Assembly (NCBI GenBank): GCA_964566225.1
Contig: CAZMHV010000003.1
Span: forward strand, 6,658-70,657
Reading direction: 5' to 3'
Source of the DNA: an uncultured Gammaproteobacteria bacterium
GTDB taxonomy: Bacteria > Patescibacteriota > Patescibacteriia > Magasanikbacterales > UBA922
DNA length: 64,000 nucleotides
The translations under genes and the position numbers were made by a program. Position 1 is the stretch's first letter. Each line of letters opens with the position of its first letter. The notes under the pieces are model-generated. The model saw nothing but the letters and a program-made list of their open reading frames with translations, did no database searches and had not been told where the DNA came from. Shown here piece after piece: positions 29,437 to 48,742 of this stretch.

Positions 29437-29508
29437 TCCCGGGTAGTTGAGTGGTACAACACCTCGCTGTTAACGAGGATATCGCTGGTTCGAGTCCAGC
29501 CCTGGGAG
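29437..29508 (+). tRNA. tRNA-Asn (anticodon GTT); integration target of the mobile element
   Basis: Manual fold: acceptor TCCCGGG/CCTGGGA (one G-U), D-arm GTTG/CAAC, anticodon stem CCTCG/CGAGG with loop cuGTTaa, T-arm GCTGG-TTCGAGT-CCAGC, discriminator G. The 3' end is overlapped by the recombinase ORF. Confidence 0.8.
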
Positions 29509-30975
29509 CATGGCTGGACGTTCCTTATATTCAGCGAGTGCCTGAAGGGGACTTCTTAGCTCAAATAAAAGGTTTTTACCTCTCAACTGTAAGTTCTGAA
29601 ATACAAAGTTGAGTATTTGGCGTTTCTCTTCGATTTCAGAACTTTTGAAAATGTCAGAAGCTCTTTGTGCTAAAGAAAGAAGCTGTGTTGCGCTGAGGCT
29701 ATAGTTTTCATCTGCATTTGTGTGGTCTTCTAGTTGAAGCTCAATATCTCGTTGCTTTTCTTTGATCTGTTTGAATTTTTTATCATAGACGTCCTTAGTA
29801 ATACTACGGTCGAGCATAAAGTCAAGTAGGGTATCAGATTGTGCTTGAAGGGCGTCATATTCGTTTCTAAGCGTGTTTACAGCCTGAGAGTGATATTTAC
29901 TCTTTGTTTCGTTCATCGTGTGTATTTTAGCCGTAATTTCTGCCACTTGTATATCTGAAAGTTGGATACTATTGAATGCCTCATAAACAGGTTTTAAGAG
30001 ATCATTTTCATTTACATAGATACGTTTGCAAGTATATTTTGAGTTTGTACAACTATAATGGTTATATATCTTTTTGTGTCGCTCAGCGGTAACTCGACAA
30101 CCACAGTTGGCACATGAAATAAGTCCTTTAAAGATAAAGGGGTGTGAGATTGATTTAAACGGAGTCTTTTTCTTTGATAAGCGTATTTTTGTAGCTTGTT
30201 CAAAAGTATAGCGAGAGATAATTGGCTCGTATTTATGTGGATAGGGTTTAGTTTTAGAGATCATCGTTCCACAATAGAAAGGATTTTTCAATATACATTC
30301 AATCATGCTTTTGGAGAGTATTTTCCCATTAGCACTTTTTAATCCTTCTTTTTCCATTATATTTTTTATATCAAGCATTGATGTGGTGCCAGATATGTAC
30401 AGATCAAAAATCTTTTTTATATATTGCCTTCGAGATTCATCGACTATAATATCTCGTTGATTTTTTTCTTCACCAATATTGAGGTAGCCAATAGGTGCTC
30501 GGCCTATCCATTCGCCGTTTCGTAGTTTTTGTTCGTAAGCACGTTTAACATTATCACTGATTGCGTCAGAGTAGTATTTTGCTAGGTGTAGATTCATTCC
30601 AAAGTGAAATTTTTCTGTTGCAGAGGTTTTTTGATCTATGACAAGATTTTCAGATGTAAAGTGCAACTCAATTTTTCCTTGTTGAGCCATTTCGTATAAA
30701 AGGGGAACACGCTTGTCAAAGACATTGCGTGAAAGACGATCCACCTTATCAAAGCAGACAGCAACTGTTTCCTTTTGGTTTTTAAGATATTCAAGAGCTT
30801 TATCAAATTCGTCTCGTTTTTGTTTATACGCACTTTCGTCAAAGACAAACTGTTTATCTATTTTTAATCCTTTTCTATCACAATAATCCTCGAGTCGTTT
30901 AACTTGAGCGGGTAGAGAGTTACCAGCTTCTTTTTGTTCTTCGGTAGAGACTCGTGCTAGAATTATCGATTTCAT
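29470..30975 (-). CDS. Large serine recombinase (integrase), copy 1; C-terminus altered by the attL junction
   Basis: N-terminal resolvase domain 'ILARVSTEEQ...' with catalytic Ser, recombinase domain, zinc ribbon 'CANCGCRV...YNHYSC', coiled coil. The last 10 aa differ from copy 2 because the ORF crosses the att crossover into the tRNA. Confidence 0.85.
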   Translation of the reverse strand: MKSIILARVSTEEQKEAGNSLPAQVKRLEDYCDRKGLKIDKQFVFDESAYKQKRDEFDKALEYLKNQKETVAVCFDKVDRLSRNVFDKRVPLLYEMAQQGKIELHFTSENLVIDQKTSATEKFHFGMNLHLAKYYSDAISDNVKRAYEQKLRNGEWIGRAPIGYLNIGEEKNQRDIIVDESRRQYIKKIFDLYISGTTSMLDIKNIMEKEGLKSANGKILSKSMIECILKNPFYCGTMISKTKPYPHKYEPIISRYTFEQATKIRLSKKKTPFKSISHPFIFKGLISCANCGCRVTAERHKKIYNHYSCTNSKYTCKRIYVNENDLLKPVYEAFNSIQLSDIQVAEITAKIHTMNETKSKYHSQAVNTLRNEYDALQAQSDTLLDFMLDRSITKDVYDKKFKQIKEKQRDIELQLEDHTNADENYSLSATQLLSLAQRASDIFKSSEIEEKRQILNFVFQNLQLRGKNLLFELRSPLQALAEYKERPAMLPGLDSNQRYPR

Positions 30976-30988
30976 ATGCTTTGTATTG

Positions 30989-33817
30989 TTAACTTGTCAA
31001 TAGCTTCTTCTGAAAATCTATTGCAAAGTCGCCTTCGCCACGAGTATCAGAGTTATAGAACTTTATGCCGATTGGCTTTATTACTTTGTAGCCGTGCTTA
31101 CTCATTTCAGCTAGATAATCTTTGTAGGCCTGCTTGTCGTTTTCGCCTGCATCAAACACAACATCACTGTCATCGTTCAGACTTATCAAGGCTTCTTCTT
31201 TCCAAGCGTCTTGTGCTAGCAAGTGACCACCCTTCGGCTCAATAATTACCTGATAATACAGTTCGTTGCGAGCCACATCATTGATGATGAGTACATAGTC
31301 TGGGCTAAACCTACGACCATCTTTTATGTTATATAGCCAATAGTCCAGTTCGTTACGAATAAGATATATTTCAGCACCTTCGTATCTAGTGTGTAAGTCG
31401 GCAATCTGGCTCGCTAAATATTTCACGAAGCGTTTTTCTTCACTTGTGCCATAGTTTTCACTATACGCATACCAGTCAGCATCTTTTATGTTGAACTGTA
31501 ATTCAGGGTTGTCGTGGTCGCTTTGAGCTTTAGCACGTTCATCAGAACTTATAAACACCTTTTCGCCCGTTACTGGGTCAACGGATGGAAACGACATCAA
31601 ATAAATGTCCTTTTCTTTGCTAAACACCTGCGATAATGACACTGGACGGAACTTGTTGCTACCAGCTTCACGTGGCATATAAATATCTATTCGCCTACGG
31701 ACTTCTGGCAATATCGCACCAACTAGCAGTTGGAGTTTTTCTTGAGCGTTTAGCGAGCCAATATCTTTACCGTCTTCGTAGGTATAAGTAATTGCGTATT
31801 TCGGCAGGTATTTGTTCATCAGTTCATCAACCGTTTGTAGTTCGGGTATATGATGACGTAGGTTGTTGAATCGGAAGAAGTTGGCTTCGGCACATACCAA
31901 CGCTTTGCGAATTATTGGTTCCGCAAAGAACTCATCGGTAATGCGTATAACTTTGGTTTTCTGACTCGCAATTTGTTGATTTTGCTCGTAATCGTTCAAA
32001 GCCCTTGCTCGCAGGTTATACAAGCCCGCTTTGATGGTGCGATTGAAGGTAGTGTCAATTTCTTCGTCAGTTGTTTTGTTGCGTTTTGTCGTGTGGTTGA
32101 CCAGCACAAATCCTTTTTTATACGTTTCGCTTTCTAAAAAGTGTTGTTTGAGTGTAATGGTCTTCTGTTCAATACCTTCATTAATAATACCTTCGCCCAG
32201 CAAATCACGTTGTAAGTTTTCTAGAAACATACCCGTTTTTACAAAGTGATACACGAAAGTTTCCAGCACACGCCCACGTTCAAACGGTGCTTTATCAAAT
32301 TTACGCTTGTACTTATCAAACTCTATATTTCGCTGTGTAAATTCAAATGTTTGGTTCTCTCTTTCGTCTGGCTTATACGAGCTTGGTAGTTCATAAGGGA
32401 AATACCTAGCCCCACGCCCAATCAACTGAATATCTTGTAACGACACCTTCTTGGCTTCACTAATATCAAAGTGAATAATGTCGTATAAACTCAATACGTC
32501 CCATCCTTCATTCAGAGCATTGACGCTAAATATGGCACGAATGGTGTTTCGTTGACTGTCTAACAGTGGCAATAGCTCGGCTTTTTCTTTCTTCTGACTG
32601 TTATATATCAACGTGTTGTCATGTGCAAAGCTTGCTCGTATTTCGCTAACAAACTTATTTAGTCCATCCCAATCGCCTTGTGTTACAAAGCCATTTTTAG
32701 GCTCCCTCAGCCAATCAAACAAATCTTTTAATATCTCGTGTTCACGATTGTTGTTTTCTTGACCCAATTCTTTTAGGTGGTTCAAATCTTCTGGTCGCAA
32801 ACTACTTATGACAGTATCAAAAAATGCACGGTCTTCTTCGCTTTGTGCGATTTTGACAGACTTTATCAACACCACAGGCTTCATCTCTACGCCCATTTCA
32901 CGCTGAGCAAGCAATCTACGATATTCGCTTAACACTACGGCATTGACTATCAGTAGGCGTTTTTGGTCTTCAGTGTGAACCTCTTTGTTGTATAGGAACT
33001 TCACGTCTTTGCTATACCTATCACGATTGAACTCCAAGAAATCGTAACGATGAACGAGCTTATCGCTATATTTAGTATGTATTGCTTCATTCGCCAAATC
33101 TACGGTTGCAGTATATTCAAGTAATAAGTTTTCTTCACGAGCCTTAACTGCCTTCATCACAGCAGTTTCCCAATTTCGCACTTCTTCTATATCGCCTTTA
33201 TTTTTACTGCGAGTATCTACGTTCAAACGGTGGGCTTCATCGGCAATAATCACCACGTTGTTATCGGCAAAATCTTGAGCTGTTAGTCCATTTTCTTTGT
33301 CTTCAATTAGATGGTTATACAGCAGTGAAGTGCTAAAAAACATAAAGTTGATAGCATTACGATCTGCGTCCGCTATACTTGGCACAGCTTTTATACCTAC
33401 ATTACGCCCATTTATTTTGACGCCTTTTGGGTTGAACAAATATTTTTCAAACTTGTAATCGGTAAAGTTTTTGAGCGCTTGGTCTTTAATTTGTATTTGA
33501 TGGACTAAAAATAGGAAGTTGCGGTAGCCTTGTGCGTATAGATACAGTACTACAGACGCCATTACGAGCGTTTTCCCAGTTCCAGTCGCCATATTGAACA
33601 GCACATGCTTGGCTTTTGCCCTGTCGCTTTCATACAGCCAAATAAAGTGTTTCAAGGCTCGCACTTGGTACTCACGCAGGGTTTTGCTCAAATTGTCCGT
33701 GATATATTCAGGCACAATAAATGAGCGTTCCCATATTTGGTAGGTAGGGTTGTTTTCTATTTGGTTGAATAGAAAATCGCCTAATGTTGCATTGATTTTA
33801 GTTTTCGTTTTCACCAT
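30989..33817 (-). CDS. res: Type III restriction-modification system, restriction subunit (Res; SF2 helicase + PD-ExK endonuclease)
   Basis: Walker A 'MATGTGKTLVMA', DEAH box 'IIADEAHRL', helicase motifs, C-terminal 'PDYVLII...IIEPKG' nuclease motif. Overlaps mod by 20 nt. Confidence 0.85.
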   Translation of the reverse strand: MVKTKTKINATLGDFLFNQIENNPTYQIWERSFIVPEYITDNLSKTLREYQVRALKHFIWLYESDRAKAKHVLFNMATGTGKTLVMASVVLYLYAQGYRNFLFLVHQIQIKDQALKNFTDYKFEKYLFNPKGVKINGRNVGIKAVPSIADADRNAINFMFFSTSLLYNHLIEDKENGLTAQDFADNNVVIIADEAHRLNVDTRSKNKGDIEEVRNWETAVMKAVKAREENLLLEYTATVDLANEAIHTKYSDKLVHRYDFLEFNRDRYSKDVKFLYNKEVHTEDQKRLLIVNAVVLSEYRRLLAQREMGVEMKPVVLIKSVKIAQSEEDRAFFDTVISSLRPEDLNHLKELGQENNNREHEILKDLFDWLREPKNGFVTQGDWDGLNKFVSEIRASFAHDNTLIYNSQKKEKAELLPLLDSQRNTIRAIFSVNALNEGWDVLSLYDIIHFDISEAKKVSLQDIQLIGRGARYFPYELPSSYKPDERENQTFEFTQRNIEFDKYKRKFDKAPFERGRVLETFVYHFVKTGMFLENLQRDLLGEGIINEGIEQKTITLKQHFLESETYKKGFVLVNHTTKRNKTTDEEIDTTFNRTIKAGLYNLRARALNDYEQNQQIASQKTKVIRITDEFFAEPIIRKALVCAEANFFRFNNLRHHIPELQTVDELMNKYLPKYAITYTYEDGKDIGSLNAQEKLQLLVGAILPEVRRRIDIYMPREAGSNKFRPVSLSQVFSKEKDIYLMSFPSVDPVTGEKVFISSDERAKAQSDHDNPELQFNIKDADWYAYSENYGTSEEKRFVKYLASQIADLHTRYEGAEIYLIRNELDYWLYNIKDGRRFSPDYVLIINDVARNELYYQVIIEPKGGHLLAQDAWKEEALISLNDDSDVVFDAGENDKQAYKDYLAEMSKHGYKVIKPIGIKFYNSDTRGEGDFAIDFQKKLLTS

Positions 33818-35513
33818 AGAACTTCTCGGTTAGTGCCTTTTCATCTTTCGATACTGTGTGCCGTGTATCGTTCATATCGGCGTAATTTAGGTATAGCTGG
33901 TTTTCGTCTAGTATGTCGGCAAGTGCCTGCTTGCGACCAGCCAAATCAAGCTTGCGAAAGTTTTCGTCTTTTTCAAACTCGGCACGGTCAAACCAGAACT
34001 TCAAGAAGGCGTTGTTACGCATATCTACATACAGGTTTTCCAGTTCTTTGATACTCGTGGCTTCCATAATAGCGTCAATATATTCTTGGTTGTATTTCTT
34101 CAACTCAAAGTAAACAAACGAGGTGTTGCTGTAATACTTTTTTATGGCATTTTCTAAACGCTTGAAGGTAACGTTATTTACATAGTCCATCTGTTCAATC
34201 AAGATGAACTTACGACTACCACCATCTTCGGCATTTTGAGCCATCACAGCCTGTGCGGTAGTGCCTGAACCACCAAAAAAGTCCAGCACGATGTCATCGG
34301 GCTCAGTGCTGATTTGTATACTGTCTTTGACCATAGCAACTGACTTAGGGTAACTAAATACTTTGCCACCAATCATGTCTTTCAAGTCGCTAGTCCCCGT
34401 TGTTCCAGAGTATTCAGGTCTAAACCAAAGCGATTTTGGTCGTTCTCCCTTTATACGAAGTTTAGTGTATATTTTATATTCGCCATTGACTTTTCTTACT
34501 TCCGTTTCGGTTTTCCATTTTTCCATAAGTGTATCTCTGCCCCAACGCCATCTTCGTTCAATTCCATTACTATCAATCGGTAGCATTTCAACACCGTTTT
34601 CAGATTTTGAGATAGACACTTCTTTTGTGTCGGGGTCGTAATAGACAGGGTAAAAAAGATTTGGTCGGTCTTCTCGCCGTGAGCCATCACCACTACGCTG
34701 TAATGGTATGCTTTTATATTTACTTATTTCATCTTCTTGCGGGTAACTGCTTGAATTATCAAAGTTGAAGTCTTTAATTTTTGCGTATTTGGCATTTTTA
34801 GCATATACAATCTTATTCTCGTGTGCGGGCGAAAAAAACTCGTTATATCTTCCCTTTAAATTATGGACAACAGCAAGCACACCAAGCCTATTTTCATAAC
34901 CAAAAATCTCGTCAGCCAAAACGCCCAAATAAAACAATTCGTAGTGGTCAATATCTATAAAAATCATACCATCTTCGGTCAGCAACTCTTTGGCTACTTC
35001 AAGTCTGTTTTTCATAAATGTAAGCCACGAACTGTGATTGAAGTTATTGTTATAGGCAAAGGTGTTGGCGTCCGTGCGGGTATTGTAAGGCGGGTCAATA
35101 TAAATGAACTTAACTTTGCCCGCTAAGCGTTCACGCAGGGTATAAAGTGCTAACAGGTTGTTGCCCTTGATAAGCAGGTTTTGTTTTAGATTGTCGTCTT
35201 CGTCAAAAAACTGAATATCGCTATCGGCGGTCAGTGCCTTTTCTCCGTCTTTGTCTATAAGGCGAAAGTCAGTTAGAACCTTCGGTTCTTCTAGTGTGTC
35301 TATATCTTTACTATCTAGCGTTTGATGTAAAAAGCGTTCATCACGCCCTACATCTTCTTTGCTCATACCCGCTTCCAGCACAGCGTCCTTGAACGGAAAT
35401 GATAACACTACATCGTTATCGTTTTTGATAAAACTGCCCTTACTCGTACTGACCAACCCTATCTTATTCGGATATTGCGTATATCTTCCTTTTTTAGATG
35501 AATTATTTGTCAT
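33798..35513 (-). CDS. mod: Type III R-M modification methyltransferase (Mod; beta-class N6A/N4C MTase)
   Basis: Motif IV 'IYIDPPYNT' precedes motif I 'LDFFGGSGTTAQA' (beta-class order typical of Type III Mod). 571 aa. Confidence 0.85.
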   Translation of the reverse strand: MTNNSSKKGRYTQYPNKIGLVSTSKGSFIKNDNDVVLSFPFKDAVLEAGMSKEDVGRDERFLHQTLDSKDIDTLEEPKVLTDFRLIDKDGEKALTADSDIQFFDEDDNLKQNLLIKGNNLLALYTLRERLAGKVKFIYIDPPYNTRTDANTFAYNNNFNHSSWLTFMKNRLEVAKELLTEDGMIFIDIDHYELFYLGVLADEIFGYENRLGVLAVVHNLKGRYNEFFSPAHENKIVYAKNAKYAKIKDFNFDNSSSYPQEDEISKYKSIPLQRSGDGSRREDRPNLFYPVYYDPDTKEVSISKSENGVEMLPIDSNGIERRWRWGRDTLMEKWKTETEVRKVNGEYKIYTKLRIKGERPKSLWFRPEYSGTTGTSDLKDMIGGKVFSYPKSVAMVKDSIQISTEPDDIVLDFFGGSGTTAQAVMAQNAEDGGSRKFILIEQMDYVNNVTFKRLENAIKKYYSNTSFVYFELKKYNQEYIDAIMEATSIKELENLYVDMRNNAFLKFWFDRAEFEKDENFRKLDLAGRKQALADILDENQLYLNYADMNDTRHTVSKDEKALTEKFYGENEN

Positions 35514-35516
35514 AAT

Positions 35517-35882
35517 TTATTGGGTACTTACTTGTTTTAAAAATGTATCAAACTCTTTTTGATCAATTCTGTATTCTTTACCAATTTTATATGCTGTTAA
35601 TTTTCCAGCTTTGATATAACGATAAATGGTCATCGGGTTAACCCTTAGTTTATTTGCTAGTTCTTCTACTAAGTAAAAGTCATTTTTATTTTCTTGTTTT
35701 GACAGATCTATTTTTACTATAGGAGCTTCTTGGTTATTTTTAGGAATTGGTTTATAAACCAGTTTTACCAACTGTAAAAGTTTATGTGCCTGTTGAAAGG
35801 CATCGTCCTTGGATAATCTTTCGCCAAACTGTTCCTCGTATAACTTTTGAAACTCTTCTAGAGCTTTATCATCTATTTTCAT
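35517..35882 (-). CDS. Excisionase-family HTH DNA-binding protein (candidate recombination directionality factor or regulator)
   Basis: C-terminus 'MTIYRYIKAGKLTAYKIGKEYRIDQKEF' matches the HTH_17/Xis-MerR-like motif. 121 aa. Confidence 0.6.
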   Translation of the reverse strand: MKIDDKALEEFQKLYEEQFGERLSKDDAFQQAHKLLQLVKLVYKPIPKNNQEAPIVKIDLSKQENKNDFYLVEELANKLRVNPMTIYRYIKAGKLTAYKIGKEYRIDQKEFDTFLKQVSTQ

Positions 35883-35923
35883 ATGTTTATAGTTAATGTA
35901 ATTATACTTTACTTTGGTTTACA

Positions 35924-37045: not shown

Positions 37046-37073
37046 ATCATTACATCTTTTGGGCCTTACAATT

Positions 37074-37334
37074 TTATATAATTTCTTTAACTTTTTTAGT
37101 GATTGCGTCTTCTATTGCTTTGCTTGTCTCTTTATCTATCGGGTGGTATATGTTAAAACTCTTTTCTGCTACTTTTTTGGTAGGATAGGTTATTCTATAT
37201 CCTGAGCCATCTAGCTTAAGGTGTACGCCTATGGACCCAAGGTAGAGAGAGTTGTCTATAACTATAGAGGCCATAGCAATTAGGCCATCTTTAGGCTTTA
37301 TTGGTACTATCTGTACTTCTGTTACGTTTTTCAT
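37074..37334 (-). CDS. spoVG: SpoVG-family protein (mobile-element encoded)
   Basis: 'MKNVTEVQIVPIKPKDGLIAMASIVIDNSLYLGSIGVHL...YPTKK...HPIDKETSKAIEDAI' is collinear with SpoVG (MKVTDVRLRK...ALVSITLDEAFVIHDLRVI...). 86 aa. Confidence 0.7.
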   Translation of the reverse strand: MKNVTEVQIVPIKPKDGLIAMASIVIDNSLYLGSIGVHLKLDGSGYRITYPTKKVAEKSFNIYHPIDKETSKAIEDAITKKVKEII

Positions 37335-37454
37335 AAAGTTGTGGATTATTACGTTTATCTATTTCCCAAAGCAAAGCAAAAAACTGAGCAAGATTTGTGA
37401 TCTGTCCGTTTGTAGAGGGGATCTGGTTGTCAGTCTCTTTTGGATACATAAAAC

Positions 37455-37483
37455 CTGATGGTGTTATCATCAGGTTATCATTG
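37455..37483 (-). terminator. Terminator after the 273-aa element gene
   Basis: AACCTGATG(gtgttat)CATCAGGTT with a T-run on the minus strand (GGTTTTATG). Confidence 0.5.
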
Positions 37484-37518
37484 CTTTACATTTGAAGATA
37501 AGAAGTTAGTGACCCACG

Positions 37519-40293: not shown

Positions 40294-40306
40294 ATGCTTT
40301 GTATTG

Positions 40307-43135
40307 TTAACTTGTCAATAGCTTCTTCTGAAAATCTATTGCAAAGTCGCCTTCGCCACGAGTATCAGAGTTATAGAACTTTATGCCGATTGGCTTTATT
40401 ACTTTGTAGCCGTGCTTACTCATTTCAGCTAGATAATCTTTGTAGGCCTGCTTGTCGTTTTCGCCTGCATCAAACACAACATCACTGTCATCGTTCAGAC
40501 TTATCAAGGCTTCTTCTTTCCAAGCGTCTTGTGCTAGCAAGTGACCACCCTTCGGCTCAATAATTACCTGATAATACAGTTCGTTGCGAGCCACATCATT
40601 GATGATGAGTACATAGTCTGGGCTAAACCTACGACCATCTTTTATGTTATATAGCCAATAGTCCAGTTCGTTACGAATAAGATATATTTCAGCACCTTCG
40701 TATCTAGTGTGTAAGTCGGCAATCTGGCTCGCTAAATATTTCACGAAGCGTTTTTCTTCACTTGTGCCATAGTTTTCACTATACGCATACCAGTCAGCAT
40801 CTTTTATGTTGAACTGTAATTCAGGGTTGTCGTGGTCGCTTTGAGCTTTAGCACGTTCATCAGAACTTATAAACACCTTTTCGCCCGTTACTGGGTCAAC
40901 GGATGGAAACGACATCAAATAAATGTCCTTTTCTTTGCTAAACACCTGCGATAATGACACTGGACGGAACTTGTTGCTACCAGCTTCACGTGGCATATAA
41001 ATATCTATTCGCCTACGGACTTCTGGCAATATCGCACCAACTAGCAGTTGGAGTTTTTCTTGAGCGTTTAGCGAGCCAATATCTTTACCGTCTTCGTAGG
41101 TATAAGTAATTGCGTATTTCGGCAGGTATTTGTTCATCAGTTCATCAACCGTTTGTAGTTCGGGTATATGATGACGTAGGTTGTTGAATCGGAAGAAGTT
41201 GGCTTCGGCACATACCAACGCTTTGCGAATTATTGGTTCCGCAAAGAACTCATCGGTAATGCGTATAACTTTGGTTTTCTGACTCGCAATTTGTTGATTT
41301 TGCTCGTAATCGTTCAAAGCCCTTGCTCGCAGGTTATACAAGCCCGCTTTGATGGTGCGATTGAAGGTAGTGTCAATTTCTTCGTCAGTTGTTTTGTTGC
41401 GTTTTGTCGTGTGGTTGACCAGCACAAATCCTTTTTTATACGTTTCGCTTTCTAAAAAGTGTTGTTTGAGTGTAATGGTCTTCTGTTCAATACCTTCATT
41501 AATAATACCTTCGCCCAGCAAATCACGTTGTAAGTTTTCTAGAAACATACCCGTTTTTACAAAGTGATACACGAAAGTTTCCAGCACACGCCCACGTTCA
41601 AACGGTGCTTTATCAAATTTACGCTTGTACTTATCAAACTCTATATTTCGCTGTGTAAATTCAAATGTTTGGTTCTCTCTTTCGTCTGGCTTATACGAGC
41701 TTGGTAGTTCATAAGGGAAATACCTAGCCCCACGCCCAATCAACTGAATATCTTGTAACGACACCTTCTTGGCTTCACTAATATCAAAGTGAATAATGTC
41801 GTATAAACTCAATACGTCCCATCCTTCATTCAGAGCATTGACGCTAAATATGGCACGAATGGTGTTTCGTTGACTGTCTAACAGTGGCAATAGCTCGGCT
41901 TTTTCTTTCTTCTGACTGTTATATATCAACGTGTTGTCATGTGCAAAGCTTGCTCGTATTTCGCTAACAAACTTATTTAGTCCATCCCAATCGCCTTGTG
42001 TTACAAAGCCATTTTTAGGCTCCCTCAGCCAATCAAACAAATCTTTTAATATCTCGTGTTCACGATTGTTGTTTTCTTGACCCAATTCTTTTAGGTGGTT
42101 CAAATCTTCTGGTCGCAAACTACTTATGACAGTATCAAAAAATGCACGGTCTTCTTCGCTTTGTGCGATTTTGACAGACTTTATCAACACCACAGGCTTC
42201 ATCTCTACGCCCATTTCACGCTGAGCAAGCAATCTACGATATTCGCTTAACACTACGGCATTGACTATCAGTAGGCGTTTTTGGTCTTCAGTGTGAACCT
42301 CTTTGTTGTATAGGAACTTCACGTCTTTGCTATACCTATCACGATTGAACTCCAAGAAATCGTAACGATGAACGAGCTTATCGCTATATTTAGTATGTAT
42401 TGCTTCATTCGCCAAATCTACGGTTGCAGTATATTCAAGTAATAAGTTTTCTTCACGAGCCTTAACTGCCTTCATCACAGCAGTTTCCCAATTTCGCACT
42501 TCTTCTATATCGCCTTTATTTTTACTGCGAGTATCTACGTTCAAACGGTGGGCTTCATCGGCAATAATCACCACGTTGTTATCGGCAAAATCTTGAGCTG
42601 TTAGTCCATTTTCTTTGTCTTCAATTAGATGGTTATACAGCAGTGAAGTGCTAAAAAACATAAAGTTGATAGCATTACGATCTGCGTCCGCTATACTTGG
42701 CACAGCTTTTATACCTACATTACGCCCATTTATTTTGACGCCTTTTGGGTTGAACAAATATTTTTCAAACTTGTAATCGGTAAAGTTTTTGAGCGCTTGG
42801 TCTTTAATTTGTATTTGATGGACTAAAAATAGGAAGTTGCGGTAGCCTTGTGCGTATAGATACAGTACTACAGACGCCATTACGAGCGTTTTCCCAGTTC
42901 CAGTCGCCATATTGAACAGCACATGCTTGGCTTTTGCCCTGTCGCTTTCATACAGCCAAATAAAGTGTTTCAAGGCTCGCACTTGGTACTCACGCAGGGT
43001 TTTGCTCAAATTGTCCGTGATATATTCAGGCACAATAAATGAGCGTTCCCATATTTGGTAGGTAGGGTTGTTTTCTATTTGGTTGAATAGAAAATCGCCT
43101 AATGTTGCATTGATTTTAGTTTTCGTTTTCACCAT
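40307..43135 (-). CDS. res: Type III R-M restriction subunit Res (copy 2)
   Basis: Identical to 30989–33817. Confidence 0.85.
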   Translation of the reverse strand: MVKTKTKINATLGDFLFNQIENNPTYQIWERSFIVPEYITDNLSKTLREYQVRALKHFIWLYESDRAKAKHVLFNMATGTGKTLVMASVVLYLYAQGYRNFLFLVHQIQIKDQALKNFTDYKFEKYLFNPKGVKINGRNVGIKAVPSIADADRNAINFMFFSTSLLYNHLIEDKENGLTAQDFADNNVVIIADEAHRLNVDTRSKNKGDIEEVRNWETAVMKAVKAREENLLLEYTATVDLANEAIHTKYSDKLVHRYDFLEFNRDRYSKDVKFLYNKEVHTEDQKRLLIVNAVVLSEYRRLLAQREMGVEMKPVVLIKSVKIAQSEEDRAFFDTVISSLRPEDLNHLKELGQENNNREHEILKDLFDWLREPKNGFVTQGDWDGLNKFVSEIRASFAHDNTLIYNSQKKEKAELLPLLDSQRNTIRAIFSVNALNEGWDVLSLYDIIHFDISEAKKVSLQDIQLIGRGARYFPYELPSSYKPDERENQTFEFTQRNIEFDKYKRKFDKAPFERGRVLETFVYHFVKTGMFLENLQRDLLGEGIINEGIEQKTITLKQHFLESETYKKGFVLVNHTTKRNKTTDEEIDTTFNRTIKAGLYNLRARALNDYEQNQQIASQKTKVIRITDEFFAEPIIRKALVCAEANFFRFNNLRHHIPELQTVDELMNKYLPKYAITYTYEDGKDIGSLNAQEKLQLLVGAILPEVRRRIDIYMPREAGSNKFRPVSLSQVFSKEKDIYLMSFPSVDPVTGEKVFISSDERAKAQSDHDNPELQFNIKDADWYAYSENYGTSEEKRFVKYLASQIADLHTRYEGAEIYLIRNELDYWLYNIKDGRRFSPDYVLIINDVARNELYYQVIIEPKGGHLLAQDAWKEEALISLNDDSDVVFDAGENDKQAYKDYLAEMSKHGYKVIKPIGIKFYNSDTRGEGDFAIDFQKKLLTS

Positions 43136-44831
43136 AGAACTTCTCGGTTAGTGCCTTTTCATCTTTCGATACTGTGTGCCGTGTATCGTTCATATCGGCG
43201 TAATTTAGGTATAGCTGGTTTTCGTCTAGTATGTCGGCAAGTGCCTGCTTGCGACCAGCCAAATCAAGCTTGCGAAAGTTTTCGTCTTTTTCAAACTCGG
43301 CACGGTCAAACCAGAACTTCAAGAAGGCGTTGTTACGCATATCTACATACAGGTTTTCCAGTTCTTTGATACTCGTGGCTTCCATAATAGCGTCAATATA
43401 TTCTTGGTTGTATTTCTTCAACTCAAAGTAAACAAACGAGGTGTTGCTGTAATACTTTTTTATGGCATTTTCTAAACGCTTGAAGGTAACGTTATTTACA
43501 TAGTCCATCTGTTCAATCAAGATGAACTTACGACTACCACCATCTTCGGCATTTTGAGCCATCACAGCCTGTGCGGTAGTGCCTGAACCACCAAAAAAGT
43601 CCAGCACGATGTCATCGGGCTCAGTGCTGATTTGTATACTGTCTTTGACCATAGCAACTGACTTAGGGTAACTAAATACTTTGCCACCAATCATGTCTTT
43701 CAAGTCGCTAGTCCCCGTTGTTCCAGAGTATTCAGGTCTAAACCAAAGCGATTTTGGTCGTTCTCCCTTTATACGAAGTTTAGTGTATATTTTATATTCG
43801 CCATTGACTTTTCTTACTTCCGTTTCGGTTTTCCATTTTTCCATAAGTGTATCTCTGCCCCAACGCCATCTTCGTTCAATTCCATTACTATCAATCGGTA
43901 GCATTTCAACACCGTTTTCAGATTTTGAGATAGACACTTCTTTTGTGTCGGGGTCGTAATAGACAGGGTAAAAAAGATTTGGTCGGTCTTCTCGCCGTGA
44001 GCCATCACCACTACGCTGTAATGGTATGCTTTTATATTTACTTATTTCATCTTCTTGCGGGTAACTGCTTGAATTATCAAAGTTGAAGTCTTTAATTTTT
44101 GCGTATTTGGCATTTTTAGCATATACAATCTTATTCTCGTGTGCGGGCGAAAAAAACTCGTTATATCTTCCCTTTAAATTATGGACAACAGCAAGCACAC
44201 CAAGCCTATTTTCATAACCAAAAATCTCGTCAGCCAAAACGCCCAAATAAAACAATTCGTAGTGGTCAATATCTATAAAAATCATACCATCTTCGGTCAG
44301 CAACTCTTTGGCTACTTCAAGTCTGTTTTTCATAAATGTAAGCCACGAACTGTGATTGAAGTTATTGTTATAGGCAAAGGTGTTGGCGTCCGTGCGGGTA
44401 TTGTAAGGCGGGTCAATATAAATGAACTTAACTTTGCCCGCTAAGCGTTCACGCAGGGTATAAAGTGCTAACAGGTTGTTGCCCTTGATAAGCAGGTTTT
44501 GTTTTAGATTGTCGTCTTCGTCAAAAAACTGAATATCGCTATCGGCGGTCAGTGCCTTTTCTCCGTCTTTGTCTATAAGGCGAAAGTCAGTTAGAACCTT
44601 CGGTTCTTCTAGTGTGTCTATATCTTTACTATCTAGCGTTTGATGTAAAAAGCGTTCATCACGCCCTACATCTTCTTTGCTCATACCCGCTTCCAGCACA
44701 GCGTCCTTGAACGGAAATGATAACACTACATCGTTATCGTTTTTGATAAAACTGCCCTTACTCGTACTGACCAACCCTATCTTATTCGGATATTGCGTAT
44801 ATCTTCCTTTTTTAGATGAATTATTTGTCAT
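43116..44831 (-). CDS. mod: Type III R-M Mod methyltransferase (copy 2)
   Basis: Identical to 33798–35513. Confidence 0.85.
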   Translation of the reverse strand: MTNNSSKKGRYTQYPNKIGLVSTSKGSFIKNDNDVVLSFPFKDAVLEAGMSKEDVGRDERFLHQTLDSKDIDTLEEPKVLTDFRLIDKDGEKALTADSDIQFFDEDDNLKQNLLIKGNNLLALYTLRERLAGKVKFIYIDPPYNTRTDANTFAYNNNFNHSSWLTFMKNRLEVAKELLTEDGMIFIDIDHYELFYLGVLADEIFGYENRLGVLAVVHNLKGRYNEFFSPAHENKIVYAKNAKYAKIKDFNFDNSSSYPQEDEISKYKSIPLQRSGDGSRREDRPNLFYPVYYDPDTKEVSISKSENGVEMLPIDSNGIERRWRWGRDTLMEKWKTETEVRKVNGEYKIYTKLRIKGERPKSLWFRPEYSGTTGTSDLKDMIGGKVFSYPKSVAMVKDSIQISTEPDDIVLDFFGGSGTTAQAVMAQNAEDGGSRKFILIEQMDYVNNVTFKRLENAIKKYYSNTSFVYFELKKYNQEYIDAIMEATSIKELENLYVDMRNNAFLKFWFDRAEFEKDENFRKLDLAGRKQALADILDENQLYLNYADMNDTRHTVSKDEKALTEKFYGENEN

Positions 44832-44834
44832 AAT

Positions 44835-45200
44835 TTATTGGGTACTTACTTGTTTTAAAAATGTATCAAACTCTTTTTGATCAATTCTGTATTCTTTACC
44901 AATTTTATATGCTGTTAATTTTCCAGCTTTGATATAACGATAAATGGTCATCGGGTTAACCCTTAGTTTATTTGCTAGTTCTTCTACTAAGTAAAAGTCA
45001 TTTTTATTTTCTTGTTTTGACAGATCTATTTTTACTATAGGAGCTTCTTGGTTATTTTTAGGAATTGGTTTATAAACCAGTTTTACCAACTGTAAAAGTT
45101 TATGTGCCTGTTGAAAGGCATCGTCCTTGGATAATCTTTCGCCAAACTGTTCCTCGTATAACTTTTGAAACTCTTCTAGAGCTTTATCATCTATTTTCAT
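44835..45200 (-). CDS. Excisionase-family HTH protein (copy 2)
   Basis: Identical to 35517–35882. Confidence 0.6.
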   Translation of the reverse strand: MKIDDKALEEFQKLYEEQFGERLSKDDAFQQAHKLLQLVKLVYKPIPKNNQEAPIVKIDLSKQENKNDFYLVEELANKLRVNPMTIYRYIKAGKLTAYKIGKEYRIDQKEFDTFLKQVSTQ

Positions 45201-45241
45201 ATGTTTATAGTTAATGTAATTATACTTTACTTTGGTTTACA

Positions 45242-46363
45242 TTACAAACTGAGTTTATAGGGCTCAAAAGTGGATAACTCTTTTTCAATATCTTGAACAA
45301 AACCATGGGTATTTATGGGGAAAGGAGGGGATTTAAAACGTGCCAAGTCTCTTTTAACGTCATTCCAATCTGCCTTGGGTCTATAAGAAGCCACAATAGT
45401 CCTGAGTTGTCTCATTCCTTGGTCTTTGGCTAATAAATTAAAGCCTACAGCCTTAACGGCTTGTTTTATGCTTAGTGTTGGGTCGTGGTGAAGTGTCCTT
45501 TTAAGGATAGAAAGTGGATTCGTATCCATATCAAGTACAAATTTGTTATTATCGTTAAAAAAGTCAGACCAATATTTTTGAAGGATGTTTTGGGAACGTT
45601 CATGGCTTAGGATATCTTTAAGGGTAGGATTTTGTTTATAGCCAAGTTTGAATAATGTCTTGTTTACGTATTTTTTGGTGGAAAGGCGTATTTCAATTCG
45701 TAATAATTTGTGAGATATTATCGAGTTTTTTACTTTGTCAAAAAGAGAAAGTTGTTTATCAGTTTTATCTTGATCCATTGAACGTTTTTGAGGCCTTGGT
45801 ATATCTGCAAACTTGTCGTACATAACAAAAGAATGTGAGTTAGTATAAAACTGGTAAGCATACCCTTCGTTACGAAAGTCGGCCTTATTTGTATCCATAC
45901 GTTTGGATATGTCAATTTTTGCAAGTTCCTGTATGGCGAGGGTGGCTGTGTATCCGTCAGACAAAGGTATATTCTTTCCTACGTGAAAGGCTACAACTGG
46001 AGCCTCTAAAAGATGATCTGTGAGTATCATAACTCCACGTTCAAACATTCTTTTCCTTAAGGTATCTATTGCTTTTGTATAGTCTTCTTGAGTATATTCG
46101 TTTATATTTTCACCGTCGTTTATGAGCTTTGGGATAGAGCATTCTACTTTCAAAACACGTGTTTGGGCATAGTATTGTGTCGTATAGAGTGTCATGCGTG
46201 GATAGTAATGACTTTCTTTTTCCTGTTTGCTCGGGTTATTTTTGAAGTTGGTTCCAGGGAAAAATCTAAGACTCCCAACGCCATCTGTTGGAGGTGAAAA
46301 TTTATCGTGGTGCATTATTTGATAACGTCCCCAAGGAATGAGGAATATAACAGTATCTACCAT
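45242..46363 (-). CDS. Hypothetical element protein (copy 2)
   Basis: Identical to 35924–37045. Confidence 0.35.
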   Translation of the reverse strand: MVDTVIFLIPWGRYQIMHHDKFSPPTDGVGSLRFFPGTNFKNNPSKQEKESHYYPRMTLYTTQYYAQTRVLKVECSIPKLINDGENINEYTQEDYTKAIDTLRKRMFERGVMILTDHLLEAPVVAFHVGKNIPLSDGYTATLAIQELAKIDISKRMDTNKADFRNEGYAYQFYTNSHSFVMYDKFADIPRPQKRSMDQDKTDKQLSLFDKVKNSIISHKLLRIEIRLSTKKYVNKTLFKLGYKQNPTLKDILSHERSQNILQKYWSDFFNDNNKFVLDMDTNPLSILKRTLHHDPTLSIKQAVKAVGFNLLAKDQGMRQLRTIVASYRPKADWNDVKRDLARFKSPPFPINTHGFVQDIEKELSTFEPYKLSL

Positions 46364-46391
46364 ATCATTACATCTTTTGGGCCTTACAATT

Positions 46392-46652
46392 TTATATAAT
46401 TTCTTTAACTTTTTTAGTGATTGCGTCTTCTATTGCTTTGCTTGTCTCTTTATCTATCGGGTGGTATATGTTAAAACTCTTTTCTGCTACTTTTTTGGTA
46501 GGATAGGTTATTCTATATCCTGAGCCATCTAGCTTAAGGTGTACGCCTATGGACCCAAGGTAGAGAGAGTTGTCTATAACTATAGAGGCCATAGCAATTA
46601 GGCCATCTTTAGGCTTTATTGGTACTATCTGTACTTCTGTTACGTTTTTCAT
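46392..46652 (-). CDS. spoVG: SpoVG-family protein (copy 2)
   Basis: Identical to 37074–37334. Confidence 0.7.
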   Translation of the reverse strand: MKNVTEVQIVPIKPKDGLIAMASIVIDNSLYLGSIGVHLKLDGSGYRITYPTKKVAEKSFNIYHPIDKETSKAIEDAITKKVKEII

Positions 46653-46836
46653 AAAGTTGTGGATTATTACGTTTATCTATTTCCCAAAGCAAAGCAAAAA
46701 ACTGAGCAAGATTTGTGATCTGTCCGTTTGTAGAGGGGATCTGGTTGTCAGTCTCTTTTGGATACATAAAACCTGATGGTGTTATCATCAGGTTATCATT
46801 GCTTTACATTTGAAGATAAGAAGTTAGTGACCCACG

Positions 46837-47658
46837 TTAAATTTCTTTTGATCTTCTTTGTTTTTCGAGTTGAATGAGTTTGGTTATTTCGTGATAAATC
46901 AAGCCATTTTTAGGAAACTTTTCATTAAGCTTTTCTTTGATCTTTTTTGCGGGAAGTGTCTTGTTTTCCCAGATAAAATCAATCATTTCTTGGCTATGTT
47001 TTCTTTTTCGTATTTTAAAGGCTTTTTCTTGATATAAAGTTTGAGCATTTTCAATCCATTTCCACCTTTTTTCAATATAATCTAAAACATCTCTTTTTGA
47101 AGCTTTTTGATTTATACAAATAGCTATTGGATAAGAAGCAAGCATCAACTGACGTTTTGTATTAAGATATATAATTTCTTCACCTTTATTGGCTGGATTT
47201 AATTCATCATCACAAAAATCAACTAACTGACACATATCCACGATCGAACCCGCTTGAAGAGACAACTGAGGATAGGGATCGGTCTCGTCGATTAACGCCT
47301 TAGCAAACATGAGAAGATCCAGGTCAAGTCCATATTTGGAAGCTATCTTTTCTTCTTGAATAAAATACTTAGTTCTTAAAAGCTTTTTACATCTTTTGCG
47401 CAATAACTCGTATCCCTTGATAATAAAGTCAAACTCATTGTTAAAATCGTTATGTCTTTTCTTTTGTTCTGGTGTATAGGTATCAAAATTTCCACTGCCA
47501 TCTAAAGCATTCTGTTTTTTTTCAAATTGTCGCAACTTCTTGATATCTTTACGAAAGTTTTTATTTCTAATCAGGTCTTCAATGTAACGAAGCATTTTAT
47601 TTGTCCCTTGGGTAGGGGGCCAGCTATGACCTTCTTCAGCTATTTTTACACTTTTCAT
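46837..47658 (-). CDS. Hypothetical protein (copy 2)
   Basis: Identical to 37519–38340. Confidence 0.5.
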   Translation of the reverse strand: MKSVKIAEEGHSWPPTQGTNKMLRYIEDLIRNKNFRKDIKKLRQFEKKQNALDGSGNFDTYTPEQKKRHNDFNNEFDFIIKGYELLRKRCKKLLRTKYFIQEEKIASKYGLDLDLLMFAKALIDETDPYPQLSLQAGSIVDMCQLVDFCDDELNPANKGEEIIYLNTKRQLMLASYPIAICINQKASKRDVLDYIEKRWKWIENAQTLYQEKAFKIRKRKHSQEMIDFIWENKTLPAKKIKEKLNEKFPKNGLIYHEITKLIQLEKQRRSKEI

Positions 47659-48145
47659 ATTCTTTACAATTGTTAAGTATTGTAAAGAATAACAGAATTT
47701 GGTATAAAATTAAAGTGAAAGTAGTCCTTTATAATGAACTGGCGGCACTGTTGTGGGCTTTTTATATCGTTACGTCACTTTAGCCGTTCCCGATAGGAAC
47801 TGTATGGTTCTTATCTTGGAACGGGCTAAAAGTCGAACGTTTCTATTTATTCAGTCTGTATTTGACTTTTCTATGAAAAATAGAATGACAAGTAAGAGTG
47901 TCGCTCGTAAAGCTTCAGGGCTTTTACGAGCTAGTGTTACCAAGACTGTGAAAGCAGTTGCTGGTAGTGCTCTTTCTCAGAGGGCTCCTAAAAGAGCGAC
48001 TCGGAAATAACTCTTAAAACTTGCCGCCAGTTTATTGTAAATGAATTTTTAGTGAGTGGTTATATTTTTAAAACGTGATAATAGTTCAGTTCCATTTAAT
48101 AGGTTTCTCCATTCTACAGTTCTGAACGCGTCCAGCAAGGGGAGC

Positions 48146-48742
48146 TGAATCGGCCATCACTAACTCCCTAACGGGTACGGTGGTGGCTTTTTTTGTTTCA
48201 TTGGGCAGAACGTTTACCCAATTTTCAGCGTGAAGGGCAGAACTCGAATTTTGAACGAAATCAATTGAATTGGGCTCTGTAACAAATGAAATTTTAATGG
48301 TTTGAGGGGAATAATTAATTTTTTGAATTGTTCGTTTCGCCAATAAATTGCTGCTCTGTCCCGTTTCGGTTTTTACCTTTGAAATAAACGATTGAAGTGT
48401 CTGAGTGACCATTTCAGGTGTGAGTTGGGATTGACTTGGACTGAGTTCGAGCCCTGCCTGGCCACCAATAGACTCATTTTTTAGTCTAAAGACAAAACTC
48501 TCGACATATTCTTTATCCACAGCAATTCTTCCCAGATTTTCTACGATATATTGTTCAAGCCTTTCAGCACTCACTTGTTTAGTGCTGCATGCCTCCCAAT
48601 CTCGTTTTGTAACACTACTACATCGATAATAATTATACCTCTTCATTTTGCCTTCTCTCCATTTGTTTGTGAAACACCCTGACATATATGCACCACATTC
48701 CGTACAGGTGATAAGCCCTCCGAAAAGATAATGTTTGAACAA
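48146..48742 (-). pseudogene. Remnant of a related large serine recombinase (zinc-ribbon plus coiled-coil C-terminal half only)
   Basis: 'LFGGLITCTECGAY...YNYYRC' parallels 'FKGLISCANCGCRV...YNHYSC' of the intact integrase. The N-terminal catalytic domain is absent. The ORF tail (to 48086) runs into element end sequence. Confidence 0.5.

What the first reader, a model, noticed from the sequence alone, without database searches (positions are those of the whole stretch)
29437..48160. Perfect tandem duplication of a 9,318-bp serine-recombinase/Type III R-M integrative element at tRNA-Asn
Seen directly: every ORF between 29.5 and 38.8 kb recurs identically at +9,318 nt. The recombinase, mod/res, Xis-like, hypothetical, SpoVG-like and second hypothetical genes all sit on the minus strand. 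The array is bounded by hybrid junctions, attL at the tRNA-Asn 3' end and attR at about 48.14 kb, with an attP-like junction between the copies. Tandem head-to-tail copies of a serine-integrase element are unusual. They could arise from integration of a dimeric circle or from a second integration event, or this could be an assembly artefact of a single copy. The element carries no conjugation or phage structural genes. It is therefore a compact R-M-carrying integrative (mobilisable?) island, which is rarely described for low-GC, CPR-like genomes.
Basis: partly seen in the sequence, partly recalled or inferred. Interest (0 to 1): 0.75.

Follow-up and report, generated by a model that had tools for sequence, protein, structure and literature searches.

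The report
Integrative R-M element, doubtful tandem copy
A 9.3-kb mobile element carrying a restriction-modification system sits at a tRNA-Asn gene of a candidate-phyla-radiation bacterium; the assembly shows two perfect head-to-tail copies, but independent read assemblies suggest one integrated copy plus a circular or minority tandem form.

Summary
Window 29504-38827 equals 38822-48145 with 0 mismatches, at a period of 9,318 nt. It is bounded by attL at the tRNA-Asn 3' end and by attR, with a complete attP-type junction between the copies.

The unit is an integrative element. It encodes a large serine recombinase whose ORF crosses attP, a Type III Mod/Res pair, an HTH_17 protein, a SpoVG-like protein, a 273-aa helical protein and a 373-aa protein.

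Relatives in other Patescibacteria contigs keep this backbone in single copy and swap the R-M cargo.

Independent k=31 contigs of run SRR16481187 break exactly at the two branch points the junction predicts. Contigs of sister run SRR16481186 run straight through attL and attR. In both runs the element shows low-depth gaps that would be unlikely at double depth. The 520-aa junction form of the recombinase occurs only in the NCBI source contig.

So the junction is biological but not fixed. The two-copy layout is most likely an assembler threading a loop made by an integrated copy plus a circular form. A true tandem dimer is not excluded.

The parts
29437..29509 (+). tRNA-Asn (GTT). Integration target; left intact by the insertion.
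   Evidence: ARAGORN; Rfam RF00005, 67.5 bits.
29504..29509 (.). attL core GGGAGC, formed by the last bases of the tRNA and the start of the element's P' arm.
   Evidence: Alignment of the three junctions.
29504..38821 (-). Element copy 1 (9,318 nt).
   Evidence: Identical to 38822-48139.
38822..48139 (-). Element copy 2 (9,318 nt), as assembled.
   Evidence: The 520-aa junction ORF is found only in the NCBI source contig.
29470..30975 (-). Large serine recombinase, attL form (501 aa). The last 10 codons are read from the reverse complement of the tRNA.
   Evidence: Pfam Resolvase 3.3e-22, Recombinase 5.9e-13, Zn_ribbon_recom 1.1e-6; phrog_95 integrase 3.4e-74.
38731..40293 (-). Large serine recombinase, attP/junction form (520 aa). 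The ORF crosses the crossover site.
30989..33817 (-). Type III restriction subunit Res (942 aa). Second copy at 40307-43135.
   Evidence: Pfam ResIII 4.9e-28; PADLOC REase_III 5.6e-100.
33798..35513 (-). Type III methyltransferase Mod (571 aa), overlapping res by 20 nt. Second copy at 43116-44831.
   Evidence: Pfam N6_N4_Mtase 2.5e-34; PADLOC MTase_III 1.2e-107.
35517..35882 (-). HTH_17 / excisionase-family DNA-binding protein (121 aa). Candidate regulator or directionality factor. Second copy at 44835-45200.
   Evidence: Pfam HTH_17 2e-12; TIGR01764 1.4e-12. Conserved next to the Rep-like gene in relatives.
35924..37045 (-). 373-aa Rep_trans-fold protein. Probable rolling-circle replication initiator, or a MobT-like relaxase. 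Second copy at 45242-46363.
37074..37334 (-). SpoVG-like protein (86 aa). Second copy at 46392-46652.
   Evidence: Pfam SpoVG 7.5e-10. Conserved upstream of the Rep-like gene in L008, L021, L022, L026 and L046.
37519..38340 (-). 273-aa helical protein with an HTH-like module; function unknown. Second copy at 46837-47658.
38340..38373 (.). 34-nt imperfect palindrome overlapping promoter-like hexamers upstream of the 273-aa gene. Candidate operator or origin element. Second copy at 47658-47691.
   Evidence: Function inferred only.
38435..38692 (+). Small ORF (85 aa) whose basic C-terminal 45 aa match phrog_5079. Second copy at 47753-48010.
   Evidence: 1.1e-8. It was called as a gene on Logan contig L003.
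38811..38838 (.). Internal attP-type junction. Inverted repeat CGTCCAGC (38811-38818) / GCTGGACG (38831-38838) around a 12-nt spacer. The spacer centre GA (38824-38825) lies inside the 6-nt core.
   Evidence: Read directly from the sequence.
48140..48145 (.). attR core GGGAGC.
48086..48742 (-). Remnant (C-terminal half) of a different large serine recombinase. Its 3' end runs across attR. Relic of an earlier element at the same tRNA.
   Evidence: NCBIfam CcrB 6.3e-13; Pfam Zn_ribbon_recom 5.2e-12. Only 36% identity to the resident recombinase, over 39 aa.

Best explanation
The unit is a 9,318-bp integrative element of a Patescibacteria (CPR) bacterium. Its large serine recombinase joins an attP site, which lies in the 3' end of its own gene, to the last bases of tRNA-Asn. 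The crossover is most likely the GA at the centre of a 6-bp identity GGGAGC. The tRNA is left intact. The backbone also encodes a Rep_trans-fold rolling-circle initiator, an HTH_17 protein, a SpoVG-like protein and a 273-aa DNA-binding-like protein. A Type III R-M system occupies the cargo slot. I think the second copy in the assembly is most likely not the predominant chromosomal state. The population carries one integrated copy, plus molecules bearing the attP junction. These are probably an excised, Rep-replicated circle coexisting with the integrated copy, or possibly a tandem dimer in a minority of cells. The assembler then followed the only path that uses every edge (flank - element - junction - element - flank), which automatically yields two perfectly identical copies. 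Shown: the anatomy, the att sites, the protein families and folds, the presence of the junction in one run and its absence in the sister run. Inferred: the crossover dinucleotide, the replication function, the circular form, and the assembler's behaviour.
Against: No reads or depth values could be examined, and the sequencing platform and assembler of the source contig are unknown. If the contig came from long reads spanning attL, a full unit and the junction, the tandem is real. The depth argument rests on one clearly characterised gap plus one break of unknown type in SRR16481187, and it assumes random coverage. All contig breaks lie near T/A homopolymers, so sequence-specific dropout is possible. 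A junction frequent enough to break contigs in a low-depth run, with no detectable attB, is also exactly what a tandem dimer in many cells would give. No circular contig of this element or its relatives was found.
Confidence: 0.55

Rival explanations
1. A genuine chromosomal tandem dimer in the sequenced population. One route is that a head-to-tail dimeric circle, produced by rolling-circle replication that failed to terminate or by recombination between monomers, integrated through one of its two attP sites. The other route is that an excised monomer recombined by homologous recombination with the resident copy. Both give attL - E - attP - E - attR with identical copies. The internal attP would stay inert because a serine integrase alone pairs only attP with attB.
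For: The junction is a complete attP, with an 8-bp inverted repeat around the core. Junction k-mers are abundant enough to break contigs in a low-depth run, while no attB branch is seen. The element encodes a Rep_trans-fold initiator that could generate multimers. Tandem arrays of identical integrative elements are known for SGI1 (PMC2297512) and CTXphi (PMC4439123). The two flank SNPs between the window and run SRR16481186 allow the two runs to hold different genotypes.
Against: The sister run has no junction. There are k-mer depth gaps inside the element in both runs. The 520-aa ORF is absent from all independent assemblies. No tandem was found in any relative. Perfect identity is uninformative, because a twice-traversed graph edge gives it automatically.
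Confidence: 0.33
2. A second integrase-mediated insertion of a monomer into attL or attR of the resident copy (accretion), as happens with tyrosine-recombinase islands.
For: It would give the same final sequence. The element did integrate next to the relic of an earlier serine-recombinase element, so its right half-site is older element DNA rather than naïve host DNA. That shows repeated use of this tRNA.
Against: From established knowledge of large serine integrases (phiC31, Bxb1, A118), integrase alone synapses attP only with attB, not with attL or attR. The relic's arm next to the core bears little resemblance to the resident P' arm, so it served as an ordinary B' arm.
Confidence: 0.05
3. 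A pure assembly error with no biological junction, such as a mis-join or a duplicated contig end.
For: Only the NCBI contig shows two copies.
Against: Independent Logan contigs of SRR16481187 stop to the base at both branch points the junction requires (29533 and 38827). The junction also has the dyad symmetry of a real attP.
Confidence: 0.03

Closest known systems
Integrative and mobilizable elements (IMEs) and ICEs of Firmicutes that encode MobT/Rep_trans proteins (Tn916/ICEBs1/ICESt3 lineage; review PMC5704250)
   Same: These are small integrated elements with a site-specific recombinase, a Rep_trans-related protein and cargo such as R-M systems. In those elements the Rep_trans relative both nicks DNA for transfer and drives rolling-circle replication of the excised circle. 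Tandem accretion with decayed elements at the same site is common.
   Different: Here the Rep-like protein does not reach the Pfam Rep_trans threshold and belongs to an unannotated family of its own: 1,356 clusters at 50% identity, with no hit in annotated plasmids or phages. No coupling protein, oriT or helper conjugative system is evident. The host is a CPR bacterium. According to that review, serine-recombinase IMEs usually insert inside protein-coding genes, not at tRNA 3' ends.
Integrative rolling-circle plasmids of actinomycetes (AICEs such as pSAM2; PMC2440964)
   Same: About 10-kb elements at tRNA genes that carry int, xis and a rolling-circle rep. From my own knowledge, they can exist as an integrated copy and a free replicating circle at once.
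   Different: AICEs use tyrosine integrases and carry a TraB-type transfer gene. This element uses a large serine recombinase and has no recognisable transfer gene.
CTXphi and other integrated filamentous phages (PMC4439123); phiRSM-type inoviruses, which use a serine recombinase at a tRNA gene (Askora et al. 2011, reference 22 of PMC7192596)
   Same: A rolling-circle initiator combined with chromosomal integration. CTXphi typically integrates in tandem, and free copies are made by a rolling-circle-like process between tandem prophages. As I recall it, phiRSM is a precedent for serine-recombinase integration at a tRNA gene; only the reference title was seen here, and it does not name the integration site.
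   Different: No morphogenesis or coat genes were detected. CTXphi uses host XerCD. phiRSM uses a small resolvase-like enzyme, not a roughly 500-aa large serine recombinase.
SCC elements (CcrAB/CcrC large serine recombinases at rlmH/orfX)
   Same: Large-serine-recombinase cassettes that carry defence or resistance cargo, insert at the 3' end of a conserved gene and pile up in tandem composites.
   Different: The Ccr NCBIfam scores are far below cut-off (84 bits against 900). The target is a tRNA. The element has its own Rep-like gene. The copies here are identical rather than different cassettes.
Loop unrolling or concatemer artefacts in metagenome assemblies of elements present in both integrated and circular form
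   Same: Two exactly identical head-to-tail copies joined by an attP junction, with a branch structure in the de Bruijn graph at both ends of the element.
   Different: The assembler and read type of the source contig are unknown, so this resemblance could not be tested directly.

Membership tests
Large serine recombinase (serine integrase) | N-terminal resolvase catalytic domain with the nucleophilic serine | tested here: met
   Pfam Resolvase 3.3e-22, residues 4-156. N-terminus MKSIILARVSTEEQ carries the conserved Ser10 (read directly).
Large serine recombinase (serine integrase) | C-terminal Recombinase domain plus zinc-ribbon domain | tested here: met
   Pfam Recombinase 5.9e-13 and Zn_ribbon_recom 1.1e-6, both above gathering score. 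Weak PDB sequence match to A118 integrase residues 37-318.
Large serine recombinase (serine integrase) | Short att sites with imperfect dyad symmetry and a central crossover within a few bases of identity | tested here: met
   Identity of only 6 bp (GGGAGC) at attL, the junction and attR. attP has 8-bp inverted arms 12 nt apart, centred on GA.
Large serine recombinase (serine integrase) | Catalyses attP x attB integration; excision needs a directionality factor | not testable with these tools
   Requires a recombination assay. The HTH_17 protein is only a candidate directionality factor.
Type III restriction-modification system | Mod methyltransferase of the N6/N4 beta class | tested here: met
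   Pfam N6_N4_Mtase 2.5e-34; PADLOC MTase_III 1.2e-107.
Type III restriction-modification system | Res subunit with an SF2 helicase-type ATPase, encoded directly downstream of mod | tested here: met
   Pfam ResIII 4.9e-28; PADLOC REase_III 5.6e-100 covering residues 33-884. mod and res overlap by 20 nt.
Rep_trans rolling-circle replication initiators (pT181 RepC/RepD, RepDE; MobT relaxases) | Sequence membership: Pfam PF02486 at or above its gathering score | tested here: not met
   The window protein scores 15.8 bits against a cut-off of 29.6. 7 of 47 relatives hit weakly, best 4.4e-5. hhalign of the family profile against pT181 RepC is not significant.
Rep_trans rolling-circle replication initiators (pT181 RepC/RepD, RepDE; MobT relaxases) | Rep_trans fold | tested here: met
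Rep_trans rolling-circle replication initiators (pT181 RepC/RepD, RepDE; MobT relaxases) | Catalytic tyrosine | tested here: inconclusive
   Y182-D183-K184 and E224/R226 are invariant in 47 relatives. By eye they resemble RepC's ...RIYNK... and ...WRVEIEL... motifs. No significant alignment supports the equivalence.
Rep_trans rolling-circle replication initiators (pT181 RepC/RepD, RepDE; MobT relaxases) | Cognate double-strand origin with a nick site | tested here: inconclusive
   Only a 34-nt palindrome at 38340-38373 was found. It is not conserved in relatives.
Genuine chromosomal tandem array | Single molecules spanning attL - unit - junction, with unit depth twice the flanks | not testable with these tools
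   No reads were available. Indirect evidence from Logan contigs points to depth of about 1x and a junction present in only one of two runs.
Integrative mobilizable element (IME) | Own integration/excision module | tested here: met
   Recombinase plus att sites.
Integrative mobilizable element (IME) | oriT and/or relaxase that exploits a helper conjugative system | tested here: inconclusive
   The Rep_trans-fold protein could be a MobT-type relaxase (PMC5704250). No oriT, coupling protein or helper was identified in the window.

The most novel reading that the evidence does not exclude
The tandem dimer is real and functional. As in CTXphi, the Rep_trans-fold initiator would nick the origin in one integrated copy and terminate at the same origin in the adjacent copy. 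That would spin off unit-length circles carrying a regenerated attP, with no excision and no directionality factor. This would be a 'copy-out' route for a serine-integrase element in bacteria that lack known conjugation systems and could pass the circles on by natural DNA uptake.
Probability: 0.1. Interest if true: 0.75.

Novelty: new variant of a known kind. Interest (0 to 1): 0.45.

Why it matters
Little is known about how CPR/Patescibacteria exchange genes. This locus defines a compact element family with a fixed backbone: a 273-aa protein, SpoVG, a Rep_trans-fold protein, an HTH protein and a large serine recombinase. The family swaps whole R-M systems in a single cargo slot. The window carries Type III. 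Relatives whose recombinase falls in the same 90%-identity cluster carry Eco57I-like Type IIG or Dcm/EcoRII.

Its recombinase belongs to a clade whose gene ends in or against the 3' end of a tRNA or tmRNA gene in more than 15 independent loci. Those loci come from Patescibacteria, Acholeplasmataceae, Chlamydiales and Rickettsiales MAGs. That target class is normally associated with tyrosine integrases.

The Rep-like protein founds a large unannotated family of 1,356 clusters.

The attP junction in one run shows the element is currently active. For users of such assemblies, it is also a worked example of a perfect tandem duplication in a contig that should not be taken at face value.

Tried and rejected
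- Exact look-ups of the 520-aa, 501-aa and 273-aa proteins in the contig index failed. The 501-aa gene is nevertheless present on L020, and the cluster look-up found all three. 'Not on record' was therefore not used as evidence.
- A degenerate DNA pattern covering attB, attP, attL and attR found nothing in IMG/VR or in JGI metagenome contigs. No independent attB or circular attP contig was obtained.
- The genome-contig scan did not contain the source genome.
- A paper search for the SRA run numbers returned nothing. Platform and assembler remain unknown.
- A profile search of PDB sequences and hhalign against pT181 RepC were both non-significant.
- tblastn of the Rep-like protein against annotated plasmids and phages found no match.
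- An inovirus identity was considered and rejected. There is no Zot-like ATPase or coat gene, and the 273-aa protein has no P-loop.
- SCC/Ccr membership was rejected on score.
- I tried to explain the Logan contig breaks inside the element by internal repeats. No repeated k-mers of 15 to 31 nt occur near the breakpoints.
- Indel polymorphism does not reproduce the observed 7-nt overlap between L001 and L003. A depth gap fits best.
Full report
**1. The observation**

The repeat finder reported a direct repeat with spacing 9,318. A base-by-base comparison shows that window 29504-38827 is identical to 38822-48145: 9,324 nt with no mismatch. The repeated block is therefore two units of 9,318 nt plus a 6-nt core, GGGAGC. 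The core occurs three times:
- at the tRNA-Asn 3' end (29504-29509, attL);
- between the copies (38822-38827);
- at the far end (48140-48145, attR).

tRNA-Asn(GTT) lies at 29437-29509. No other 31-mer is repeated in the window.

Two details differ from the finding. First, the recombinase ORF crosses the att site, so it is 501 aa at attL and 520 aa at the internal junction. Second, a small + strand ORF (38435-38692) matches phrog_5079.

**2. Anatomy of the unit**

All of the following genes lie on the minus strand.
- A large serine recombinase with Resolvase, Recombinase and Zn_ribbon_recom domains, all above gathering score. It also matches phrog_95 integrase at 3.4e-74.
- Type III Res, with ResIII at 4.9e-28 and PADLOC REase_III at 5.6e-100.
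- Type III Mod, with N6_N4_Mtase at 2.5e-34 and PADLOC MTase_III at 1.2e-107.
- A 121-aa HTH_17 / excisionase-family protein.
- A 373-aa protein with no family hit.
- A SpoVG-like protein.
- A 273-aa protein with no family hit.

The 373-aa protein has 56 homologues in the word-indexed search. A profile search finds 1,356 clusters at 50% identity. It has no match in annotated plasmids or phages.

Foldseek against the PDB and hhalign against pT181 RepC were non-significant. I therefore call it a protein with the Rep_trans fold, not a Pfam family member. An invariant Y182-D-K motif resembles RepC's RIYNK by eye only.

**3. The att sites**

The internal junction reads ...ACG CGTCCAGC AAGGGGAGCATG GCTGGACG TT... 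It has 8-bp inverted arms at 38811-38818 and 38831-38838, 12 nt apart. The centre, GA at 38824-38825, falls in the middle of the 6-bp core.

This is the layout expected of a serine-integrase attP. The crossover dinucleotide itself is inferred.

attL keeps the whole tRNA. The P' arm encodes the recombinase C-terminus (...EYKERPAMLP). It is conserved in relatives up to the point where each joins its own tRNA-Asn.

To the right of attR lies a 218-aa ORF (48086-48742). It is the zinc-ribbon-onward half of a different large serine recombinase: NCBIfam CcrB 6.3e-13, Zn_ribbon_recom 5.2e-12, and only 36% identity to the resident enzyme over 39 aa. An earlier element therefore used the same tRNA and decayed. 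Similar C-terminal recombinase relics sit next to tRNAs elsewhere, for example L017-L019 and L038-L045, with L044 beside tRNA-His.

**4. The family**

Recombinase relatives at 28-79% identity come from Patescibacteria/Paceibacterota, Acholeplasmataceae, Chlamydiales and Rickettsiales MAGs and from metagenomes. Nearly all end in or a few bases from the 3' end of a convergent tRNA (Asn, His, Val, Ile, Met, Gln, Tyr, Ser, Leu) or tmRNA gene.

The backbone (273-aa-like) - SpoVG - Rep-like - HTH - [cargo] - recombinase recurs, wholly or in part, in L005/L030, L006, L008, L021, L022/L023, L025-L028, L032 and L046, always as a single copy.

Elements whose recombinase falls in the same 90%-identity cluster carry different cargo:
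- L046 has an Eco57I-like Type IIG enzyme;
- L047 has Dcm plus EcoRII;
- L021 has a DUF5874 protein;
- the window has Type III.

The host's ABC-F protein has its best named relatives in Magasanikbacteria and Peregrinibacteria at about 60-63% identity. The host is therefore a CPR bacterium.

**5. Is the tandem real?**

The source is a 187,920-nt NCBI contig. Independent k=31 Logan contigs from two sister runs match the window.

In SRR16481187:
- L002 covers 23033-29533. It stops exactly at the last 31-mer before the sequence shared by attL and the junction.
- L003 covers 37535-38827. It stops exactly at the last base shared by the junction and attR.
- L001 covers 30344-37541.

Two breakpoints that coincide to the base with the predicted graph branches show that junction k-mers exist in that run. 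L002 passes 29509 without stopping, so an empty attB was not detectable.

In SRR16481186:
- L020 (from a 39.9-kb contig) runs from the left flank through attL into res.
- L004 (from a 22-kb contig) runs from the right flank through attR to 48034.
- Neither shows a branch. They differ from the window at only two flank positions, 19199 and 20133.

The junction is therefore present in one run and absent, or pruned as rare, in the other.

Inside the element, L001 and L003 overlap by 7 nt rather than 30. That means 31-mers spanning 37534-37542 fell below the abundance cut-off. By coordinates inferred from the record length, the two SRR16481186 contigs overlap by 19 nt near 38716-38734.

I made a Lander-Waterman estimate, assuming reads of about 150 nt and a cut-off of 2 (recalled from the Logan description, not checked here). 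Gaps like this are expected about once per 6-7 kb at the flank depth of SRR16481187. At twice that depth they would be roughly a thousand times rarer.

This argues that the element is not at double depth. It rests on very few events, and all breakpoints lie near A/T homopolymers.

The 520-aa junction ORF is found only in the NCBI record. Perfect identity of the copies carries no weight, because an assembler that traverses one graph edge twice produces it automatically.

**6. Interpretation**

Four processes all yield exactly the observed sequence:
- integration of a dimeric circle;
- homologous recombination of a circle into the resident copy;
- integrase-mediated attP x attL recombination;
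- assembler unrolling of 'integrated copy + circle'.

Sequence alone cannot separate them. I weigh three things: the run-to-run difference, the depth indication, and the presence of a rolling-circle-type Rep that makes a coexisting episome plausible. On that basis I favour 'one integrated copy plus a junction-bearing minority or episomal form, threaded into two copies by the assembler' at about 0.55. A genuine tandem dimer stands at about 0.33.

Integrase-mediated second insertion is unlikely, given the known attP x attB restriction of serine integrases. A junction-free assembly error is excluded by the Logan breakpoints.

If the tandem is real, the CTXphi precedent makes a functional role conceivable. 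In CTXphi, free copies are made by a rolling-circle-like process between tandem prophages (PMC4439123).

**7. Comparison with known systems**

The element works like a small integrative rolling-circle replicon or IME (PMC5704250 and PMC2440964). It differs by combining four features:
- a large serine recombinase that targets a tRNA 3' end;
- an attP inside the recombinase gene;
- a divergent, unannotated Rep_trans-fold family;
- an exchangeable R-M cargo slot, in CPR hosts.

No paper describing this family was found. The large genomic-island databases may nevertheless already contain members.

Verdict: the repeat is real in the assembly and the junction is real in the reads. The tandem state is unproven and probably not the dominant state. 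The element is a new variant of a known kind and is of moderate interest.

Noticed in passing
window 48086-48742 (-): Truncated C-terminal half of a second, distantly related large serine recombinase lies directly right of attR, and its reading frame runs into the element's P arm. It is a relic of an earlier element at the same tRNA-Asn.
   Followed up: yes
L007-L015, L021, L022, L026-L028, L033-L035, L044, L049 (recombinase 3' ends): This whole clade of large serine recombinases ends in or within about 35 nt of the 3' end of a convergent tRNA (Asn, His, Val, Ile, Met, Gln, Tyr, Ser, Leu) or tmRNA gene. The loci come from CPR, Acholeplasmataceae, Chlamydiales and Rickettsiales MAGs and a human-gut scaffold. 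tRNA/tmRNA targeting is usually a hallmark of tyrosine integrases.
   Followed up: partly
L046 6326-9997; L047 329-3003; L022 11362-14097; L021 3339-5314: Near-identical backbones (recombinases of L046 and L047 in the same 90% cluster as the window's; SpoVG-Rep-HTH 90% nt identity in L046) carry different defence cargo in the same slot. L046 and L022 have Eco57I-like Type IIG, L047 has Dcm + EcoRII, and L021 has DUF5874.
   Followed up: partly
L023 end (locus 15588; Logan SRR26425193): This contig, carrying a 79%-identical relative, stops 28-29 nt into tRNA-Asn. That is about where a k=31 branch between occupied (attL) and empty (attB) sites, or another tRNA-Asn context, would fall. It may indicate site polymorphism in that sample.
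   Followed up: no
window 15047-15149 and 17202-17304: A 103-nt direct repeat (76% identity) spaced 2,155 nt apart brackets a glycosyltransferase/HAD gene and a 158-aa gene. It lies in the low-GC (31-34%) stretch at 13-18 kb.
   Followed up: no
window 24000-26000: GC content is 0.50-0.51 against a window average of about 0.38. A 361-aa ORF (24424-25509 +) has a 329-aa antisense ORF. There is no Pfam or Rfam hit.
   Followed up: partly
window about 54400-57400 (- strand; L004 3859-5193 and 2225-3727): A TIR-like (ThsB_TIR, weak) protein sits next to a caspase-like Peptidase_C14 protein, with RmuC alongside. These may be defence genes in the host flank (gene table).
   Followed up: no
L024 472-10588 (IMGVR_UViG_3300011994_000097): A homologue of the Rep-like protein (38% identity) lies directly downstream of phage tail genes, including a tape-measure protein (phrog_9959 1.1e-17). 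Either a prophage uses this Rep family or the two elements are adjacent.
   Followed up: partly
window 38435-38692 (+), repeated at 47753-48010: A small ORF between the 273-aa gene and attP has a basic C-terminal 45 aa that match phrog_5079, a family of unknown function, at 1.1e-8. It was not detected in relatives by tblastn.
   Followed up: partly
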